Positions 1,147-6,523 of a stretch of 38,355 nucleotides of DNA are shown in pieces. The position numbers and the translations under genes are program-made. Each line of letters begins with the position of its first letter. Positions within the stretch are counted from its first letter, which is position 1. The stretch lies in the IMG/VR virus record IMGVR_UViG_3300031999_007842, positions 117,708 through 156,062 of that record; one strand, given 5' to 3'. The DNA is from a virus (taxonomy: Duplodnaviria > Heunggongvirae > Uroviricota > Caudoviricetes). Under the pieces are notes generated by a model. It was not told the origin of the DNA, did not search any database, and worked only from the letters and a program-made list of their open reading frames with translations.

Positions 1147-1556
1147 TCAAGACCCTTTATGCAGAGGATGGAGGCAAGGCTCTTCGTCTTCAATTCACAG
1201 AAGAAGTTGTAGCTAGATTGCGGAAACTACAAGCAACCGTTCAGAATTTACCTCTTGAACAAGGAGAGTATGCATTAATAGAATATTATATGAGAAAAAG
1301 CATAGTTCTTGTCCGGAAGAAATCTATTGATATTGGAAACTGGGGATATGAAGGATGGGAAACCTATCTAGGTGGGTCGGACTCCTTGAAAACAATAGAT
1401 GATCTGCCAGAAGTTCATTTCACTTCGATGTTCTTGTATTATATGCAAGGTGGATATACAGGAGTGGATGACGCGGGAAGGGAAGGATTCACAAAACTTA
1501 TATTGCCTAAACATAAGGAATTGATAGTCTGGAAGAAGATAGAGGGAACTGCATGA
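1122..1556 (+). CDS. Hypothetical protein
   Basis: 144 aa ORF coupled to rnhA and to Topo IB (ATGA overlap); no family recognised. Confidence 0.6.
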   Translation: MAVKKRRIVKTLYAEDGGKALRLQFTEEVVARLRKLQATVQNLPLEQGEYALIEYYMRKSIVLVRKKSIDIGNWGYEGWETYLGGSDSLKTIDDLPEVHFTSMFLYYMQGGYTGVDDAGREGFTKLILPKHKELIVWKKIEGTA

Positions 1557-3124
1557 AAAGTCTGGAACACAATGGAATATACCTCCCACACTACAATGTA
1601 GTTGGTTTGTCAGTAAAGTATCGAGGGAAACTGATTCCTCTTACTCCCTTGGCAGAGCAATTATGCATTCAGTTCGTCAAAAAGTTTGATCTACCTTACA
1701 TGCAGGATGAAACTTTTGTTCACAACTTCTTAAATGATCTAATCAGTGAACTTGCAAAGACCGATATAGGAAAGAAGATGCAGTGGGATGAGATAGATCT
1801 AGCAGATTGGGACTGGACTCATATTCAAGAATACATTGCCGATTTGAAAGCTAAAACAGAGGCGATGAGCAAGGAAGATAAAAAGACAGCAAGAGAACTT
1901 AGTAAGAAACTTAGAGAGGATCTCAAAGAGAAGTATGGTTATGCTGTCATGGACGGCAACAAAGTTCCACTTATGAATTGGGCTTCCGAGCCAGCATGTA
2001 TCTTTATGAGCAAAGGCAAGAACCCAAACCGTGGTAAGTGGAAATTACCAGTCACCAAGAGTGACATTACCCTAAACTTGAGTTCAGGGTCTCCTGACCA
2101 GTCATGGGGTGATATAGTGTGGAAACCAGATGAGATGTGGATCGCGTCATGGTCATCTCCGTTAGATGGCAAGATGAAATATGTCTGGTTCTCGCCTTCG
2201 TCAAGTATAAGGCAAGATAAGGAGAGAAAGAAATTCTCCCTCGCTTCTCAGCTAGGAAATGAATTGAATAAACTAGAGCGGTATATTGAAAAGGAGCTAG
2301 GTAGCTCTGACTTAGAAAGAAGGAAATTATCTACAGCAGTGTATTTGATTAAATCTCTCGCACTTCGTGTGGGCGATGAGAAACTAGCAGGAGAACACGG
2401 TACAGTAGGCTGTACTACTTTAAAGAAAGAGAATATAACTATTGAAGACAGTAGAATCCATCTCTCATTCATAGGAAAAGACTATGTTAAATGGGAGAGG
2501 GATTTGGAAGTATCAGAGAAAGTGAAAAGAAACCTAGTTGAGTTTGTCAAGAAAGCGAGGGAGGATTTTATCTTCAAGGGTCTCAATTCAAACAAGATAG
2601 CAGAATTCCTGAGAGAAATAATACCAGGACTCTCTGCAAAAGTATTTAGAACTTACATAGCAGGAACAATCTGGGATGAATACGCTAATAAAAATCTCAA
2701 AATGATTAGTGGTGAAACTTCTATACCAGTGAGGAAGTATCTCTTCAAACTAACTAACCTGGAAGTAGCCAAGAAACTCAATCATAAGAAAGCCTTACCA
2801 AAGAACTATGAGGAAAGACTAGCCAAGAAGAAACTTCAGTTCGAGATGGGAAAGACCAAGCTAGACTTGATAGAAGAAGGAGACTACAAGAAAGTCCAGG
2901 CACAGGAAAGGAAGGTAGAGAAGCTAGCCTGTGACTTCGAACTCTTGAGAGATACAACTGAATGGAACTTGGGGACAAGCCTTACTTCCTACATAGACCC
3001 GAACAAAGCAATGGCTTTTGTAGAGAAGGCCGATCTTGAAGTTGGTGACGTATACTCTAAATCATTGAAGGAGAAATACTCATGGGCAATCAAAGAAAAA
3101 GGAAAGGAAGAAAGCGAAAACTAA
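1553..3124 (+). CDS. top1: DNA topoisomerase IB, long eukaryote/archaeal type
   Basis: LEHNG N-terminal core, EP-x3-F loop, KYVWFSPSS; catalytic pentad intact: ALRVGDEK (R), FIGKD (K), AKVFRTY (R), LNHKK (H), GTSLTSYIDP (Y); coiled-coil linker before the Tyr domain. Confidence 0.95.
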   Translation: MKSLEHNGIYLPHYNVVGLSVKYRGKLIPLTPLAEQLCIQFVKKFDLPYMQDETFVHNFLNDLISELAKTDIGKKMQWDEIDLADWDWTHIQEYIADLKAKTEAMSKEDKKTARELSKKLREDLKEKYGYAVMDGNKVPLMNWASEPACIFMSKGKNPNRGKWKLPVTKSDITLNLSSGSPDQSWGDIVWKPDEMWIASWSSPLDGKMKYVWFSPSSSIRQDKERKKFSLASQLGNELNKLERYIEKELGSSDLERRKLSTAVYLIKSLALRVGDEKLAGEHGTVGCTTLKKENITIEDSRIHLSFIGKDYVKWERDLEVSEKVKRNLVEFVKKAREDFIFKGLNSNKIAEFLREIIPGLSAKVFRTYIAGTIWDEYANKNLKMISGETSIPVRKYLFKLTNLEVAKKLNHKKALPKNYEERLAKKKLQFEMGKTKLDLIEEGDYKKVQAQERKVEKLACDFELLRDTTEWNLGTSLTSYIDPNKAMAFVEKADLEVGDVYSKSLKEKYSWAIKEKGKEESEN

Positions 3125-3870
3125 GCACTGAACTTGAGACCCCAAAATGGAAGAGATGGGGCAAGAGGATTCTGACCATAGGGATAATTGCGATTGTAGT
3201 TTTTACACTTTTCAATCTATTCACGACAGGGAGTGAGGCGGGGCATTATAATTATTGTGTAGCACAAATCAATAAAGCGGGGGTTTTGCAAGACCTAAGA
3301 GACTGGGCAACCAAGAATAATGATCCCATAGATGGCTTAAACTTTACAGAACTTCTGAAGTGGGAACATAGGCATCTAGTCTATTGGGGTGGAGAACTTC
3401 AAGCCCGCCCAGAATCTCCAGTATCGATCCTAACTATAAACCAAGCAAAGATCTACCACGACAAGAGTGGAGCAACGTATTGGGCAGTCTACTGCTTAAG
3501 TTACAATTCCCTCCAAGTCATTGCGCCACAAGGAACAAACTTTGAATTCGATTATCTACAAGACTTGGGATTCACATTGGGGAGATGTGGAGAATTCTCT
3601 TTGCTTTACTATAGTCTGGTAACTGCAAATGGTTATATTGCCAGAGTAGTCTTAGACTGTTCAATACTGACTAACTCGTCTAAGAATACTGCAGGAGACC
3701 ATGCGTGGGTAGAACTCAAGAGCACGGATGGAAGTTGGTTACACTGTGACCCCACAGAAGCAATTGTCAATCACCCAGACATGTACAGAGATGAATGGAA
3801 TAAGGATGTCAATAGAGTCTATGCAGTAAATGGGATAGAAACAGTGGATGTGACAAGCACTTATGCATGA
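3082..3870 (+). CDS. Membrane-anchored transglutaminase-fold protein, peptide:N-glycanase (Png1/NGLY1)-like
   Basis: Basic N-terminus plus hydrophobic helix (ILTIGIIAIVVFTLFNLF); Cys-His-Asp triad in GRCGEFS, GDHAWVE, WLHCDPTE; tail PDMYRDEWNK...VDVTSTY matches the PNGase core pattern P-x-x-Y-x3-W-x-K...VDVT-x-RY. Confidence 0.85.
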   Translation: MGNQRKRKGRKRKLSTELETPKWKRWGKRILTIGIIAIVVFTLFNLFTTGSEAGHYNYCVAQINKAGVLQDLRDWATKNNDPIDGLNFTELLKWEHRHLVYWGGELQARPESPVSILTINQAKIYHDKSGATYWAVYCLSYNSLQVIAPQGTNFEFDYLQDLGFTLGRCGEFSLLYYSLVTANGYIARVVLDCSILTNSSKNTAGDHAWVELKSTDGSWLHCDPTEAIVNHPDMYRDEWNKDVNRVYAVNGIETVDVTSTYA

Positions 3871-4234
3871 AATTAGACTCGCCAAACTAATTAAAGAAGT
3901 GGGAGAATTCATAGCTAAGAGACTAGAAGCGGGAGAATGGAATTTTGCTGTCTTCTATCAGCACGAGTTAGTCTGGTCCAATGACGAGAAAAGAGTATGG
4001 TGCAGACTATTCAAGAATTACAAGTTCAAAACGAAACATGCCTGGAAGACAGAAGCAATGGCTTTTGAGATATTTCTCCAACCTGAACAAGATACATGGA
4101 TAGATGAGATACAAATTAGTGTAGTGAGAGATAGTGAAATAATCTACTCCCGATCAGTGAACATAGCACCTATACATCTTTGTAAGGGAGATACTTTCAC
4201 AACACTTTTACAATTCAATATAAAAGAGGAGTGA
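3863..4234 (+). CDS. Hypothetical protein (beta-rich C-terminal half)
   Basis: 123 aa ORF overlapping the upstream gene; no family recognised. Confidence 0.6.
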   Translation: MHEIRLAKLIKEVGEFIAKRLEAGEWNFAVFYQHELVWSNDEKRVWCRLFKNYKFKTKHAWKTEAMAFEIFLQPEQDTWIDEIQISVVRDSEIIYSRSVNIAPIHLCKGDTFTTLLQFNIKEE

Positions 4235-4240
4235 ATTGAA

Positions 4241-4516
4241 ATGGGAAATTGTCCAATATGTAAAACACCGATTGAAGCATGGCAGGCTCTATGCAAAGAA
4301 TGTTGGCAGAGAGCAGAAGATTCCTACAAAGCCAAGAAGCAAGAAGATGGAGAATTAATTGAGAAGCTTCGAGGCCAGGCCAAGAATGACCTAATGTACA
4401 TCATAAGAGAAATCTGTAGGAAATGCCCCAAGGTCAATAAGGATGTAAATAATCTTGCCTGTACTCTTTGTGTCTTCAAGGAAAAGGAGAAACTGATTAG
4501 AGCATTTGTGGAATGA
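4241..4516 (+). CDS. Double Zn-finger protein
   Basis: CPIC...CKEC at the N-terminus and CRKC...CTLC at the C-terminus. Confidence 0.65.
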   Translation: MGNCPICKTPIEAWQALCKECWQRAEDSYKAKKQEDGELIEKLRGQAKNDLMYIIREICRKCPKVNKDVNNLACTLCVFKEKEKLIRAFVE

Positions 4517-4824
4517 TAGAAATGAAACGTAACCATAATCACAAAGTCAATGAAACAAGAAAGCGGAGTCTTCTGAAAGCGCTAAGTGGCTATATCTTTG
4601 AAGTAACAGTAGATACTTTCATAATTGGAATAGGGCTAAAACTTCTTGGTCAATTTGAGACTGGAGCTGCATTCGCTGGTGGCTTTACATTAGCAGCAAT
4701 TACGGAAGTGCTTTGCTTCGCAAGTCACTATGTCAATGATAGATTCTGGAACAAAGTACAATGGGGAAGGCAAGTGGAAGATGTCGAAGAAGAATTTGAT
4801 TCAAACAGAGTCGAACATCTCTGA
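4513..4824 (+). CDS. DUF2061-like small membrane protein
   Basis: ETRKRSLLKALS...two hydrophobic segments...HYVNDRFWNKVQWG resembles the DUF2061 pattern (ET-x2-RS-x2-KA-x-SW...Y-x-HER-x-W-x-K-x2-WG). Confidence 0.6.
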   Translation: MIEMKRNHNHKVNETRKRSLLKALSGYIFEVTVDTFIIGIGLKLLGQFETGAAFAGGFTLAAITEVLCFASHYVNDRFWNKVQWGRQVEDVEEEFDSNRVEHL

Positions 4825-5176
4825 TGATGCTCATTGTGCCAAGTATTTTATTAAATACAACCGAAGGGCCAGATGCCCTTTCTGTGGATCAATAATGCAT
4901 TTTAGATCTCATGTCTATTATGAAGGACGAGATGAATATTGGACTTGTCCAGAATGTGGCTTAACCTGCCCTAATTGGGAAGACTTTACTGAAGAGCAGA
5001 AAGCTAAGGCAAGAGGAATCTGGCGTAACGTACTCAAGAAAGAAGTAGTAGATCACGAGAACGGTCTCGCCTATTATCAGAGGAAATTGAAACTTTGGGG
5101 TAAGTACATGACTGATGAAGAGAAGGTAGTTTTACTTGCAGAAGAACTCGAAGGCAAACCAGAACATTCCAACTGA
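4781..5176 (+). CDS. Zn-ribbon protein
   Basis: CPFCG...EYWTCPECG. ATG at 4781 is in frame with the track ORF starting at 4730. Confidence 0.65.
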   Translation: MSKKNLIQTESNISDDAHCAKYFIKYNRRARCPFCGSIMHFRSHVYYEGRDEYWTCPECGLTCPNWEDFTEEQKAKARGIWRNVLKKEVVDHENGLAYYQRKLKLWGKYMTDEEKVVLLAEELEGKPEHSN

Positions 5177-5822
5177 ATTTACCAAGTTTCCTTGTCCTGC
5201 ATGTGGAATATATTATGAACCTTACATGACAAGGCGAGATGGGAAGGCGATGTGTGATTGCCCTCAACATGGTCTGTATGAAACGAGTATTGCTGTGTCC
5301 AAGAACTTTCGAATCTTTTGTGCTAAGGTTGGCTCTGCTCCCAACAGAGATGCACATTATTACACTTCCTCAGAAGAGAAGATCAAACATTTTCTAGACC
5401 ATAGAGGATTAGTGGAAGGTCTGGATTATTCCCACAATGCTAGAGTAAGGAATGGTCGAAACGCTCATCCGCACAAGTTCATAAATGAGAAGGGAAAGAA
5501 ACGGACTGCCAGGTATGTATACTTCTGGTTTGACTTCGTGATCCCTTCAAAGAAGATGATCCTGGAAGCTAGTCCTTCAGTATGGCATAAGATGTGGAAT
5601 CGTGAATCATCAGATCAAAAGAAGTCTGATTTTGCTTCAGCTATAGGTTGGACTCTTATCAATCTAGACGAGAAAGATCTAGCGCAATTAAATAAACCTA
5701 GAACTGAAGGAAAGAAGTTAGGATTCAACCCCAATGTTAAACCTTATCATAGAACAGAGAACTGTCAGAAGCTAGACAGCCTCTTCGGTAAGCCTCAAAA
5801 AGGAGGAAAATCTATTAAATAG
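5136..5822 (+). CDS. Zn-finger plus DUF559/Vsr-like PD-(D/E)xK endonuclease
   Basis: N-terminal CPAC...CDCPQH; SSEEKIKHFL; YFWFDFVIPSKKMILEASPSVWH; D-x2-K-x2-FA-x2-IGW-x-LI is typical of DUF559/Vsr-like nucleases. Confidence 0.7.
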   Translation: MQKNSKANQNIPTEFTKFPCPACGIYYEPYMTRRDGKAMCDCPQHGLYETSIAVSKNFRIFCAKVGSAPNRDAHYYTSSEEKIKHFLDHRGLVEGLDYSHNARVRNGRNAHPHKFINEKGKKRTARYVYFWFDFVIPSKKMILEASPSVWHKMWNRESSDQKKSDFASAIGWTLINLDEKDLAQLNKPRTEGKKLGFNPNVKPYHRTENCQKLDSLFGKPQKGGKSIK

Positions 5823-5834
5823 GAGGGAGAGCAA

Positions 5835-6083
5835 TTGATCGATATAGCAGGCTATGACTTAATAGGATACGTAGGTATGATACTCGTATTGATCACCATG
5901 GCCTTAACGAGAAAGCACTATCGTAAATCACAGGTAGTTAGTATTCTAGGTTCAGGAACATTGGTGGCTTACTCTATATTAAAATGGGAACCACCATACA
6001 TGCTGTTGAACCTGATCTTGGTACTCATCAGTACCTGGAATCTAGTTAAGGCAAGTGATAAGAAACATGGCAGAGAAAGCTAA
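5835..6083 (+). CDS. Small 3-TM membrane protein (CBU_0592/YgjV/PQ-loop-like)
   Basis: IGYVGMILVL...SILGS..LVAYS.L...PPYMLLN pattern; TTG start with GGAGGGAG upstream. Confidence 0.55.
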   Translation: MIDIAGYDLIGYVGMILVLITMALTRKHYRKSQVVSILGSGTLVAYSILKWEPPYMLLNLILVLISTWNLVKASDKKHGRES

Positions 6084-6243
6084 GTTTAAGAAGAGCCAAT
6101 GTCCAGAATGTGGATCCATGGATACAAAGGCGATGTTGCTTCCATATGGTGATGAAGAGGATGAATACATATACTGCAATAAGTGCAAGAAGGTTAGTGT
6201 AATTACCAAGGTGAGCATAGTTGTCAAAGAAACAAAGTCCTAA
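6067..6243 (+). CDS. Small Zn-ribbon protein
   Basis: CPECG...YIYCNKC; ATG at 6067 is in frame with the track ORF. Confidence 0.65.
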   Translation: MAEKAKFKKSQCPECGSMDTKAMLLPYGDEEDEYIYCNKCKKVSVITKVSIVVKETKS

Positions 6244-6523
6244 AGCATGCCCCTTCTGTTTCGGAGAGCCTTATTTCTATAGAACTGGGAATGGCTTGAT
6301 TAGGCATGTCATGAATTCTCACATGTATGATTCGAGACATCGATTAGTGTATCCTCCAACCCAAACAGCTAAATTTGTCAGACAAGACATTACAGCAGGA
6401 ACAAGGTTTCTGGAGATCTCTGATTGGGAGGAGGTAGAGGATTTCCTCAGAGATTATCTTGTAGGATTCAAGAATCCAAGTAAAAGAAACTCGAGGTTTT
6501 GGCAATATGTCAATGAATCCTGA
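6221..6523 (+). CDS. C2H2-type Zn-finger protein
   Basis: CPFC-x13-LIRHVMNSH. Confidence 0.6.
   Translation: MSKKQSPKACPFCFGEPYFYRTGNGLIRHVMNSHMYDSRHRLVYPPTQTAKFVRQDITAGTRFLEISDWEEVEDFLRDYLVGFKNPSKRNSRFWQYVNES

What the first reader, a model, noticed from the sequence alone, without database searches (positions are those of the whole stretch)
3082..3870. Membrane-anchored PNGase (NGLY1/Png1)-like enzyme
Seen: positive-inside N-terminus and one TM helix, so the catalytic domain is likely external. Motifs LLKW, GRCGE, DHAWVE, WLHCDPTE and P-x-x-Y-x3-WNK...VDVT match the peptide:N-glycanase core better than a generic transglutaminase. The Zn-binding CxxC pairs of eukaryotic PNGase are not visible. 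Known: archaeal S-layers, archaella and many virus receptors are N-glycosylated. Inference: a virus-encoded surface deglycosylase or amidase could remove receptor glycans (superinfection exclusion) or aid exit. Protease or cross-linking activity is the alternative.
Basis: partly seen in the sequence, partly recalled or inferred. Interest (0 to 1): 0.72.

Follow-up and report, generated by a model that had tools for sequence, protein, structure and literature searches.

The report
Virus-encoded membrane-anchored PNGase-like enzyme
A large tailed virus of sediment archaea (probably Bathyarchaeia) carries a gene for a membrane-anchored enzyme whose closest known relatives are the eukaryotic enzymes that cut N-linked sugar chains off proteins; it probably faces outward from the infected cell and remodels its surface, but no activity has been shown.

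Summary
ORF 3082-3870 (+, 262 aa) has a basic tail (13 K/R in 29 residues), one strong TM helix (30-48) and an intact Cys169-His207-Asp223 transglutaminase-like core.

The only solved relatives by sequence are mouse and yeast PNGase (E 5.8e-7). A pLDDT-91 model matches mouse PNGase best (Z 15.3, 2.2 A, 28% identity). A family profile aligns to Zn-type PNGases at hhalign E 3e-34, through the PNGase/Rad4-specific C-terminal extension. The Zn-binding CxxC domain is absent.

The gene sits in a 156-kb tailed virus, overlapping the end of a long topoisomerase IB gene. Relatives occur in at least four other viral contigs and in many Bathyarchaeia MAGs. Most cellular copies lack the TM helix, and eight keep the TopoIB-PNGase-like pair. 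TM-anchored members carry an N-x-S/T sequon (34/45) that TM-less ones lack (1/47), which fits an outside location.

Archaeal PNGase homologues, including surface forms proposed to strip receptors, were predicted in 2018 (PMC6222260). I found no report of virus-borne ones, so this is a new variant of a known kind.

The N-glycanase chemistry and the role in exclusion or exit remain inference. The scan had not noted this protein on other DNA.

The parts
3068..3073 (+). Shine-Dalgarno-like AAGGAG, 8 nt upstream of the ATG, inside the 3' end of the TopoIB gene
   Evidence: Read directly from the sequence.
3082..3870 (+). Whole gene for the 262-aa PNGase-like protein (P0001), stop codon included
   Evidence: ORF list and translation; Pfam Transglut_core above its cut-off.
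3082..3168 (+). Residues 1-29: basic N-terminal tail, predicted cytoplasmic
   Evidence: 13 K/R against 2 D/E. Across 44 TM-anchored relatives, the N-flank is more basic than the C-flank in 31 and less basic in 7.
3169..3225 (+). Residues 30-48: single TM helix, a signal anchor (cleavage after S-E-A at 51-53 cannot be excluded)
   Evidence: Kyte-Doolittle mean 2.45. The AF2 model has a helix at 22-48. An N-terminal TM is conserved in the viral and metagenomic relatives.
3226..3432 (+). Residues 49-117: helical N-lobe with the LLKW helix (88-98) and the R109-x-E-x-P motif
   Evidence: AF2 helices 51-63, 66-78 and 88-98. L91, W94 and R109 coincide with columns conserved in Zn-type PNGases.
3340..3348 (+). 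N87-F-T sequon at the N-cap of the LLKW helix
   Evidence: A sequon falls in this segment in 34 of 45 TM-anchored relatives and 1 of 47 TM-less relatives. There are only 3-4 independent contrasts, so this is suggestive only.
3433..3576 (+). Residues 118-165: beta-sheet insert in place of the Zn-binding domain of eukaryotic PNGase; variable or absent in relatives
   Evidence: AF2 strands 120-127, 132-138, 143-147 and from 156, with pLDDT 79-91. The alignments show a gap here in the shorter relatives. The four Zn-ligand Cys columns are gaps.
3577..3759 (+). Residues 166-226: catalytic core with Cys169, His207 and Asp223, plus R188, W209, E211, W219, H221 and E226
   Evidence: Aligned residue by residue to mouse and yeast PNGase. 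These positions are nearly invariant in the 80-sequence alignment and agree with PNGase-conserved columns.
3760..3867 (+). Residues 227-262: PNGase/Rad4-type C-terminal extension (P232, Y235, W239, K241, D256-V-T, Y261)
   Evidence: Aligned to PNGases by phmmer and hhalign. All eight PNGase-conserved positions are kept. A cellular relative hits Pfam Rad4 above its cut-off in this region. PMC6222260 names this extension as the feature that unites PNGase and XPC/Rad4.
1553..3124 (+). Upstream long (eukaryote-type) topoisomerase IB gene; its last 43 nt overlap the PNGase-like gene
   Evidence: Pfam Topoisom_I_N, Topoisom_I and Topo_C_assoc. The same gene pair occurs in viral contig L002 and in 8 Bathyarchaeia loci.
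3863..4234 (+). Downstream 123-aa ORF of unknown function, overlapping by 8 nt; probably co-transcribed
   Evidence: ORF list; no Pfam family. Conserved at 37% identity in the same position in L002 only.

Best explanation
The gene encodes a type II (N-in, C-out) membrane protein, or possibly a secreted one. Its extracytoplasmic domain is a Zn-less member of the PNGase branch of the transglutaminase-like Cys-His-Asp superfamily. It is made by a 156-172-kb head-tailed virus whose host is probably a member of the Bathyarchaeia.

The gene is co-transcribed with the replication-module topoisomerase IB, so I expect early or middle expression. After insertion by the host Sec system, the domain faces the cell envelope. 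There, Cys169 would attack the amide bond between Asn and the first sugar of N-glycans on envelope glycoproteins (S-layer, pili, receptors). This would release the glycan and convert Asn to Asp.

The likely pay-off is a receptor-destroying effect. It would block superinfection, keep progeny from sticking to the dying cell, and perhaps loosen the envelope.

**Shown:** the fold, the family branch, the intact triad, the anchor, viral carriage, and an oligosaccharyltransferase in candidate hosts.

**Inferred, with my odds:**
- Outside orientation: about 0.85.
- N-glycanase chemistry: about 0.45.
- Biological role: about 0.3.
For: **PNGase branch.**
- PNGases are the only solved sequence relatives.
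- They are the best structural match: Z 15.3, rmsd 2.2 A over 157 residues, 28% identity. The next match is Z 12.4 at 7.4 A. The Foldseek top four are all PNGases.
- hhalign of the family against Zn-type PNGases gives probability 99.9 and E 3e-34, running through the C-terminal extension.
- 27 of 38 alignable PNGase-conserved columns are identical, including every conserved position of the extension.
- The R/W/E/W residues listed as PNGase-conserved in PMC3502110 are present.

**Outside orientation.**
- Charge bias and TM helix in this protein.
- Family-wide positive-inside bias.
- A sequon is kept in TM-anchored members and absent from TM-less ones.

**Substrate class exists.** Three Bathyarchaeia genomes that carry family members each encode STT3/AglB.

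**Viral carriage.**
- Terminase and capsid hits in the genome.
- TM-anchored relatives in viral contigs L002-L005 and in the virus-like L062.

**Prior proposal.** Cellular archaeal surface PNGase homologues were already proposed to deglycosylate receptors (PMC6222260).
Against: - No activity data exist for any archaeal homologue in the library searched.
- The Zn-binding domain is absent. Its CxxC motifs are reported as critical in eukaryotic PNGases, and Drosophila Pngl, which lacks one motif, showed no PNGase activity (PMC2866665).
- Cytoplasmic PNGases need reducing conditions and act on denatured glycoproteins (PMC3502110). That is awkward for an enzyme working on a native cell surface.
- Most triad-flanking residues are shared with generic transglutaminase-like proteases, so they do not prove glycan specificity.
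- The nearest cellular relatives are TM-less, presumably cytosolic. The family's ancestral substrate therefore need not be a surface glycoprotein.
- The linking sugar of Bathyarchaeia N-glycans is unknown.
- The sequon correlation rests on only 3-4 independent contrasts.
Confidence: 0.45

Rival explanations
1. It is an outward-facing cysteine protease or isopeptidase. It cuts envelope proteins, such as the S-layer or its anchor, to help lysis or exit or to process surface proteins. Transglutaminase-fold viral lysins PeiW/PeiP and the periplasmic protease LapG work this way.
For: - The same papain-like Cys-His-Asp fold; PeiP scores Z 9.1, LapG Z 8.9 and putative proteases 3kd4 Z 11.3.
- Loss of the Zn domain that eukaryotic PNGases need.
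- In viral contigs L003/L004 the gene lies next to a terminase-like and capsid module.
Against: - These matches are clearly weaker than PNGase: Z 9-11 at 3.6-3.8 A and 10-17% identity, against Z 15.3 at 2.2 A and 28%.
- The PNGase/Rad4-specific C-terminal extension is fully conserved.
- The TM helix is strongly hydrophobic, unlike releasable SAR-type anchors.
- In the window the gene lies in the replication module, not a lysis module.
Confidence: 0.28
2. It is a passenger or glycan-binding protein with no catalytic role in infection. The gene came in as a block with topoisomerase IB and persists as a lectin-like or weakly active surface protein.
For: - The TopoIB-PNGase-like pair is shared with 8 Bathyarchaeia loci, which suggests block transfer.
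- Drosophila Pngl binds glycan without detectable PNGase activity.
Against: - The triad and about 12 further positions are at least 90% conserved across 80 sequences.
- The gene is kept in at least five divergent viral contigs at 31-48% identity, with the anchor retained.
- Three of those contigs (L003-L005) lack the TopoIB neighbour, so the gene is retained on its own.
Confidence: 0.12
3. It is a surface transglutaminase or protein deamidase that cross-links or deamidates envelope proteins, for example to harden or mark the infected cell's surface.
For: - Superfamily membership; TG2, TG3 and FXIII match at Z 9.5-10.
- A plant PNGase is reported to have transglutaminase activity as well (statement in PMC2866665).
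Against: - Animal transglutaminases are much weaker matches than PNGase.
- Protein glutaminases score only Z 4.5-4.7.
Confidence: 0.08
4. The catalytic domain is cytoplasmic and works with topoisomerase IB on DNA-protein adducts. The TM helix only tethers it to the membrane.
For: - Overlapping genes with TopoIB in two viruses and adjacency in 8 host loci, where a 'PhageMetallopep' peptidase gene also sits upstream.
- A second TM-less cellular subclade lies beside topoisomerase IA.
- The inactive PNGase-derived domain of XPC/Rad4 works on DNA repair.
Against: - 13 K/R before the TM helix against 2 after it predicts N-in, C-out, and the family shows the same bias.
- The sequon pattern fits an outside domain.
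- Both topoisomerase adjacencies occur within narrow, closely related lineages whose flanking genes are also conserved, so they may be inherited synteny.
Confidence: 0.04

Closest known systems
Eukaryotic cytoplasmic peptide:N-glycanase core (mouse Ngly1, PDB 2F4M/2F4O; yeast Png1, 1X3W/3ESW)
   Same: - Transglutaminase-like fold and Cys-His-Asp triad.
- GRCGE, DH-x-W-x-E and W-x-H-x-D motifs.
- The LL-x-W helix and the C-terminal extension (P..Y...W.K ... DVT..Y).
- It is the best match by sequence, profile and structure.
   Different: - No Zn-binding CxxC domain; a beta-sheet insert or a deletion sits in its place.
- No Rad23-binding, PUB or PAW parts.
- N-terminal basic tail plus TM anchor, so the predicted location is outside rather than cytosolic.
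- Virus-encoded.
- Activity untested.
Archaeal PNGase homologues predicted by Krishnan, Burroughs, Iyer and Aravind 2018 (PMC6222260)
   Same: - PNGase-type domain with an intact triad in archaea.
- The non-thaumarchaeal forms lack the Zn domain, are predicted to sit on the cell surface, and were proposed to deglycosylate surface receptors during conflicts with invaders.
   Different: - Those forms are cellular and described as signal peptide plus C-terminal TM. They are often linked to an NxT/S-repeat glycoprotein gene and to restriction-type genes.
- This one is carried by the virus itself, is anchored at the N-terminus, and sits beside TopoIB.
- Its Bathyarchaeia relatives are mostly TM-less. 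That does not fit the paper's statement that all non-thaumarchaeal forms are surface proteins.
- I could not check the paper's supplementary lists.
XPC/Rad4 transglutaminase-like domain
   Same: - Shares the PNGase-type C-terminal extension.
- Second-best structural group (Foldseek E 6.5e-5; VIA Z 12.4 and 11.0).
- Pfam Rad4 is hit above its cut-off by a cellular family member.
   Different: - XPC/Rad4 is catalytically inactive, fused to DNA-binding BHD domains, and nuclear.
- Here the triad is intact and there are no BHD domains.
PeiW/PeiP pseudomurein endoisopeptidases of methanogen proviruses
   Same: Virus-encoded transglutaminase-fold Cys-His-Asp enzymes that act on the archaeal envelope. 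Fold match Z 9.1 and 7.7.
   Different: - Much weaker similarity.
- No PNGase-type extension.
- They cut an isopeptide bond in pseudomurein, a polymer not known in Bathyarchaeia (my own knowledge).
- They carry pseudomurein-binding repeats, which are absent here.
Receptor-destroying enzymes of viruses (for example influenza neuraminidase or phage tailspike depolymerases); functional analogy only
   Same: The proposed logic is the same: the virus removes the glycan it binds, which prevents superinfection and self-trapping (established knowledge; an analogy, not homology).
   Different: - Unrelated folds.
- Those enzymes sit on the virion, whereas this one would sit in the infected cell's membrane.
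- The role here is an inference.

Membership tests
PNGase branch of the transglutaminase-like superfamily (Png1/NGLY1 core) | Papain-like transglutaminase fold with a Cys-His-Asp triad | tested here: met
   C169, H207 and D223 align to the PNGase triad. They are at least 90% conserved in 80 sequences. The model has pLDDT 91 and matches 2f4o at Z 15.3.
PNGase branch of the transglutaminase-like superfamily (Png1/NGLY1 core) | Conserved C-terminal extension shared only by PNGase and XPC/Rad4 (Anantharaman 2001, as quoted in PMC6222260) | tested here: met
   Residues 227-262 align to PNGases. P232, Y235, W239, K241, D256, V257, T258 and Y261 are all identical to PNGase-conserved columns. Generic transglutaminase-like hits in Bathyarchaeia genomes stop before this region.
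PNGase branch of the transglutaminase-like superfamily (Png1/NGLY1 core) | Conserved Arg, Trp (His+2), Glu (His+4) and Trp (Asp-4) noted for PNGases (PMC3502110) | tested here: met
   R188, W209, E211 and W219 are present. Most of these also occur in generic family members, so the test discriminates weakly.
PNGase branch of the transglutaminase-like superfamily (Png1/NGLY1 core) | Zn-binding domain with two CxxC pairs before the catalytic Cys | tested here: not met
   No CxxC in the protein. The four Cys columns are gaps in this protein and in the whole family.
PNGase branch of the transglutaminase-like superfamily (Png1/NGLY1 core) | Cytosolic location and Rad23/HR23 binding | tested here: not met
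   The N-terminal basic tail plus TM helix predicts an outside domain. No Rad23-binding helices follow the core, because the protein ends at residue 262. This is a prediction, not an experiment.
PNGase branch of the transglutaminase-like superfamily (Png1/NGLY1 core) | Hydrolysis of the Asn-GlcNAc amide bond (EC 3.5.1.52) | not testable with these tools
   Needs an enzyme assay. I could not obtain model coordinates or the paper on the chitobiose site (PMC2722417 is not held).
Archaeal cell-surface PNGase homologues (PMC6222260) | PNGase-type domain, intact triad, no Zn domain, predicted extracytoplasmic | tested here: met
Archaeal cell-surface PNGase homologues (PMC6222260) | Architecture of N-terminal signal peptide plus C-terminal TM helix | tested here: not met
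   The only hydrophobic segment is N-terminal (30-48) and there is none at the C-terminus.
Archaeal cell-surface PNGase homologues (PMC6222260) | Neighbouring gene for an NxT/S-repeat membrane glycoprotein, or restriction-type conflict genes | tested here: not met
   The neighbours are TopoIB and a 123-aa soluble ORF of unknown function. A distant cellular relative (P0024) does sit near an N6 methyltransferase gene.
Pfam Transglut_core (PF01841) | Score above the gathering threshold | tested here: met
   31.8 bits against 23.
PeiW/PeiP-type viral envelope isopeptidases | Close fold or sequence similarity and pseudomurein-binding repeats | tested here: inconclusive
   Fold similarity only at Z 9.1 and 7.7. 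No sequence hit. Repeats were not searched for specifically.

The most novel reading that the evidence does not exclude
This is the first virus-encoded PNGase-type N-glycanase. An archaeal virus plants it in the infected cell's membrane as a receptor-destroying enzyme that strips N-glycans from the host envelope.

Its Bathyarchaeia relatives include Zn-less cytosolic forms. That would make them a second archaeal lineage, besides Thaumarchaeota, with an intracellular PNGase-like enzyme, which bears on how eukaryotic cytosolic deglycosylation arose.
Probability: 0.33. Interest if true: 0.75.

Novelty: new variant of a known kind. Interest (0 to 1): 0.55.

Why it matters
- **Archaeal virus biology.** N-glycans coat archaeal S-layers, pili and archaella, and they are likely virus receptors. 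No virus-encoded enzyme that removes them is known. A membrane-planted deglycosylase would be a new way for an archaeal virus to control adsorption and superinfection.
- **A usable enzyme.** The domain is small (about 210 residues), has no zinc domain and models with high confidence. It should be easy to express. It could become a new deglycosylation tool for archaeal-type glycans.
- **Origin of eukaryotic PNGase.** The family switches between TM-anchored (viral) and TM-less (Bathyarchaeia) forms. This gives a natural experiment on how a surface PNGase-like enzyme could become an intracellular one, the step proposed for the origin of eukaryotic PNGase and XPC/Rad4.
- **Host assignment.** The shared TopoIB-PNGase-like gene pair ties this virus lineage to a Bathyarchaeia host lineage.

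Tried and rejected
- **NCBIfam and PHROGs:** no meaningful hit.
- **GenBank phage and archaeal-virus records:** tblastn found no match. No deposited virus in that set carries the gene.
- **First genome-contig scan with the broad alignment:** it failed for lack of a conserved stretch. A narrower alignment worked, but its pattern (GRCGEF[SA][LI]L) limits what could be found. 'Only Bathyarchaeia' therefore means 'among matches to that pattern'.
- **Relatives of a virus record:** these cannot be drawn. Handles reached through loci carry no taxonomy, so I did not run a phylum-wide tally.
- **Chitobiose-binding residues of yeast Png1:** the key paper (PMC2722417) is not held. I recall W220, W231, W251, E222, R210 and K253, but that is unverified, and I did not use it as evidence.
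- **Supplementary lists of PMC6222260:** not held. I cannot say whether any Bathyarchaeia sequence was in their set.
- **Genome-wide W-x-K-I-L-G tag noted earlier:** I tested whether the N-terminal WGKRIL is a copy. All 18 exact copies in the genome are on soluble small proteins and none lies in this gene. Rejected.
- **SAR-endolysin-like releasable anchor:** rejected, because the helix is strongly hydrophobic.
- **Topoisomerase adjacency as a functional link:** the IA adjacency is confined to one subclade of 7 loci whose flanks are also conserved. The IB adjacency is confined to 8 loci that share a 72-79% identical upstream gene. Both look like inherited synteny.
- **Model coordinates:** not available to scripts, so I could not measure triad geometry or the surface exposure of N87.
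Full report
**1. The observation**

The window holds an ORF at 3082..3870 on the + strand that encodes 262 residues. A Shine-Dalgarno-like AAGGAG lies at 3068-3073, 8 nt before the ATG, and the first 43 nt of the gene overlap the end of the upstream gene.

Residues 30-48 form the only strongly hydrophobic segment (Kyte-Doolittle mean 2.45). The 29 residues before it hold 13 K/R and 2 D/E, and the 30 after it hold 2 K/R. There is no CxxC anywhere in the protein.

**2. What the protein is**

- Pfam assigns Transglut_core above its threshold (31.8 against 23 bits).
- Against all PDB sequences, the only hits are peptide:N-glycanases: mouse 2f4m at E 5.8e-7, and yeast 1x3w and 3esw at about 0.01. 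They align over residues 166-261, from the catalytic Cys to the last residues.
- An exhaustive profile search of 1.8 billion representatives found 1741 relatives, 379 of them at E <= 1e-10.
  - The top hits are about 200-aa proteins, most with one N-terminal TM helix.
  - Directly below them come long proteins with two or more CxxC motifs and no TM, the Zn-type (eukaryote-type) PNGases. One of these shows the start of a PAW domain.
- A profile of 43 family members aligns to a profile of 20 Zn-type PNGases with probability 99.9 and E 3.2e-34, at 38% consensus identity. The alignment runs from R-x-E-D-P...GRCGE to DVT-x-x-Y.
- Of the 47 columns that are at least 85% conserved in the Zn-type PNGases, 38 can be aligned (leaving out Met1), and this protein is identical at 27. 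These include all eight conserved positions of the C-terminal extension. The four Zn-ligand cysteine columns are gaps.
- Krishnan et al. (PMC6222260) state that this C-terminal extension unites PNGase and XPC/Rad4 to the exclusion of other transglutaminase-like proteins. Consistently, a cellular family member hits Pfam Rad4 above its cut-off in that region.

**3. Structure**

AlphaFold2 on an 80-sequence alignment gave mean pLDDT 91.3 and pTM 0.82. The model has a TM helix at 22-48, three helices, the LLKW helix at 88-98, a beta-sheet insert at about 118-165, and then the catalytic sheet.

Foldseek against the PDB ranks four PNGase chains first (E 4e-9 to 4e-8). XPC/Rad4 follows at 6.5e-5 or weaker, and generic proteases and animal transglutaminases at 3e-3 or weaker.

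The Foldseek-independent aligner puts mouse PNGase first at Z 15.3, rmsd 2.2 A over 157 residues and 28% identity. The next matches are:

| Match | Z | rmsd |
|---|---|---|
| XPC | 12.4 | 7.4 A |
| Putative protease 3kd4 | 11.3 | 3.6 A |
| TG3 / TG2 | about 10 | 4.3 A |
| PeiP | 9.1 | 3.8 A |
| LapG | 8.9 | 3.6 A |

. The protein therefore belongs to the PNGase branch. It lacks the Zn domain, and a variable beta insert (absent in shorter relatives) occupies that position.

**4. Where it lives**

The window is the last 38 kb of a 156-kb IMG/VR record. That record encodes a large terminase (PF03237, 41 bits) and an HK97-type capsid protein (PF05065). Earlier notes of this scan also read it as a roughly 172-kb head-tailed archaeal virus.

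The window itself carries RNase H, long topoisomerase IB, a metallophosphoesterase, ribonucleotide reductase, RadA-like and ERCC4 proteins, PolB and glycosyltransferases, all on one strand.

The gene lies in this replication-type module, overlaps TopoIB upstream, and overlaps a 123-aa unknown ORF downstream. A related viral contig (L002) has the same order of GNAT acetyltransferase, RNase H-like ORF, TopoIB, PNGase-like gene and the 123-aa ORF. Identities there are 51% for TopoIB and 36-37% for the two downstream genes.

**5. Relatives**

- Three IMG/VR contigs of 59-91 kb carry TM-anchored relatives. In L003 the gene lies near a LonB-type protease gene and a weak capsid hit, in L004 near a weak terminase hit, and in L005 near an RNA ligase gene.
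- A 12-kb metagenome contig (L062) with an RNA ligase gene and densely packed co-directional small genes carries another.
- A pattern scan of one genome per prokaryotic species returned 56 loci. Fifty-four are in Bathyarchaeia MAGs, including complete chromosomes. The other two are labelled Acidobacteriota but nest inside Bathyarchaeia clades.
- The cellular copies sit among housekeeping genes such as GatD/GatE, a tRNA methyltransferase, DHDPS and CitG.
- In a sample of 151 Bathyarchaeia genomes, about a dozen had strong full-length matches. Weaker hits covered only the generic core.
- Most cellular copies have no TM helix and start just where the anchored forms leave the membrane.
- In a quick maximum-likelihood tree:
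  - The Zn-type PNGases form one clade (98).
  - The window's protein falls in a supported clade (96) with the other viral sequences, TM-anchored metagenomic sequences, and a monophyletic (99) TM-less Bathyarchaeia clade.
  - A second TM-less Bathyarchaeia clade (99) lies elsewhere.
  - The tree is unrooted, so the direction of change cannot be read from it.
- Eight cellular loci of the first TM-less clade have TopoIB directly upstream, as in the virus, plus a conserved 'PhageMetallopep' gene before it. This points to an old exchange of a TopoIB-PNGase-like block between this virus lineage and a Bathyarchaeia lineage. It is my main ground for naming Bathyarchaeia as the probable host, and it is an inference.

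**6. Orientation**

The charge bias predicts N-in, C-out for this protein. Among 44 anchored relatives, the N-flank is more basic than the C-flank in 31, less basic in 7 and equal in 6.

A second, independent hint comes from a sequon. The residue before the LLKW helix is N87 in an N-F-T sequon. Among anchored family members, 34 of 45 have a sequon in this short segment. Among TM-less members, 1 of 47 does. Where anchored forms have Asn at the column, 26 of 27 have S/T at +2. The four TM-less forms with Asn there have none.

Archaeal N-glycosylation happens outside the membrane (established knowledge), so this fits an external, glycosylated domain. The tree allows only 3-4 independent contrasts, never in the opposite direction, so the sign test cannot reach significance. 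I count this as suggestive.

Cleavage by signal peptidase after S-E-A (51-53) is possible and would release the domain. Either way the domain is outside.

**7. Mechanism and its weak points**

The best-supported reading is an outward-facing PNGase-type amidase. Three Bathyarchaeia genomes that carry family members each encode STT3/AglB, so the substrate class exists in the candidate hosts. The virus has no STT3 of its own.

Krishnan et al. had already proposed that cellular archaeal surface PNGase homologues deglycosylate receptors to keep invaders out. A virus carrying such an enzyme would turn the same chemistry to superinfection exclusion, and to protecting progeny from re-adsorbing to the dying cell. 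The position in the replication module suggests expression before lysis.

The arguments against are these:

- The CxxC Zn motifs are reported to be critical for eukaryotic PNGases, and Drosophila Pngl, which lacks one, binds glycan but showed no PNGase activity.
- Cytoplasmic PNGases prefer denatured substrates and reducing conditions.
- The residues around the triad are largely superfamily-wide.
- The nearest cellular relatives are apparently cytosolic.
- No archaeal homologue has been assayed in the literature I could search.

For these reasons I put the N-glycanase chemistry at about 0.45 and an envelope protease or isopeptidase at about 0.28.

**8. Novelty**

Archaeal PNGase homologues, including Zn-less surface forms, are a published prediction (PMC6222260). 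The new elements here are:

- carriage by viruses (at least five viral contigs);
- the N-terminal signal-anchor architecture;
- the Bathyarchaeia family with two TM-less clades;
- the sequon pattern;
- the link to TopoIB.

No paper in the library combines archaeal viruses with PNGase or transglutaminase-like terms. The Bathyarchaeia virus survey mentions neither. No deposited phage or archaeal-virus genome holds a homologue. I class it as a new variant of a known kind.

Noticed in passing
window 1553-3870; L002 2053-4363; L008, L009, L010, L011, L015, L018, L020, L026 (about 3300-6480 in each): The gene pair long topoisomerase IB then PNGase-like gene occurs in two viruses and in eight Bathyarchaeia MAG loci. 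In the cellular loci, a 139-aa 'PhageMetallopep' (PF18894) gene precedes TopoIB. This suggests an old block exchange between virus and host, direction unknown.
   Followed up: partly
L006-L031 and L035-L057 (gene at about 5800-6500 in most loci): Two large Bathyarchaeia clades of PNGase-like proteins (160-200 aa) have no TM helix or signal and lie among housekeeping genes. They are presumably cytosolic and lack the Zn domain. This does not fit the published statement that all non-thaumarchaeal archaeal PNGase homologues are surface proteins.
   Followed up: partly
L037, L039, L040, L042, L044, L045, L047 (for example L040 3504-5594, minus strand): In one subclade of the second TM-less clade, the PNGase-like gene is divergently adjacent to a topoisomerase IA gene (Topoisom_bac plus Toprim). 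The flanks are conserved too, so this is probably inherited synteny. It is still curious next to the TopoIB link of the other clade.
   Followed up: partly
L008 6480-9045: Next to one cellular PNGase-like gene lie an AsnA-like aspartate-ammonia ligase gene and an asparaginase-family gene. In L006 the neighbours are GatD/GatE and a UDP-glucose/GDP-mannose dehydrogenase gene. Possibly a coincidence; the pattern was not seen in other loci.
   Followed up: partly
window 3863-4234: A 123-aa soluble ORF overlaps the PNGase-like gene by 8 nt. It has no Pfam family and is conserved (37% identity) in the same position only in the related viral contig L002. Its function is unknown.
   Followed up: partly
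L003 3081-5228; L004 2420-4873: Related viral contigs encode a LonB-type AAA+ protease (715 and 817 aa) two genes upstream of their PNGase-like gene.
   Followed up: no
L016 and L042: Two loci labelled Acidobacteriota (Acidiferrales, Acidoferrum) carry genes that nest inside Bathyarchaeia clades. L042 also has the Bathyarchaeia-type synteny. These are probably mis-binned contigs.
   Followed up: no
L062 9795-10601: A virus-like metagenome contig that carries a TM-anchored PNGase-like gene also encodes a DruA (Druantia) family protein.
   Followed up: no
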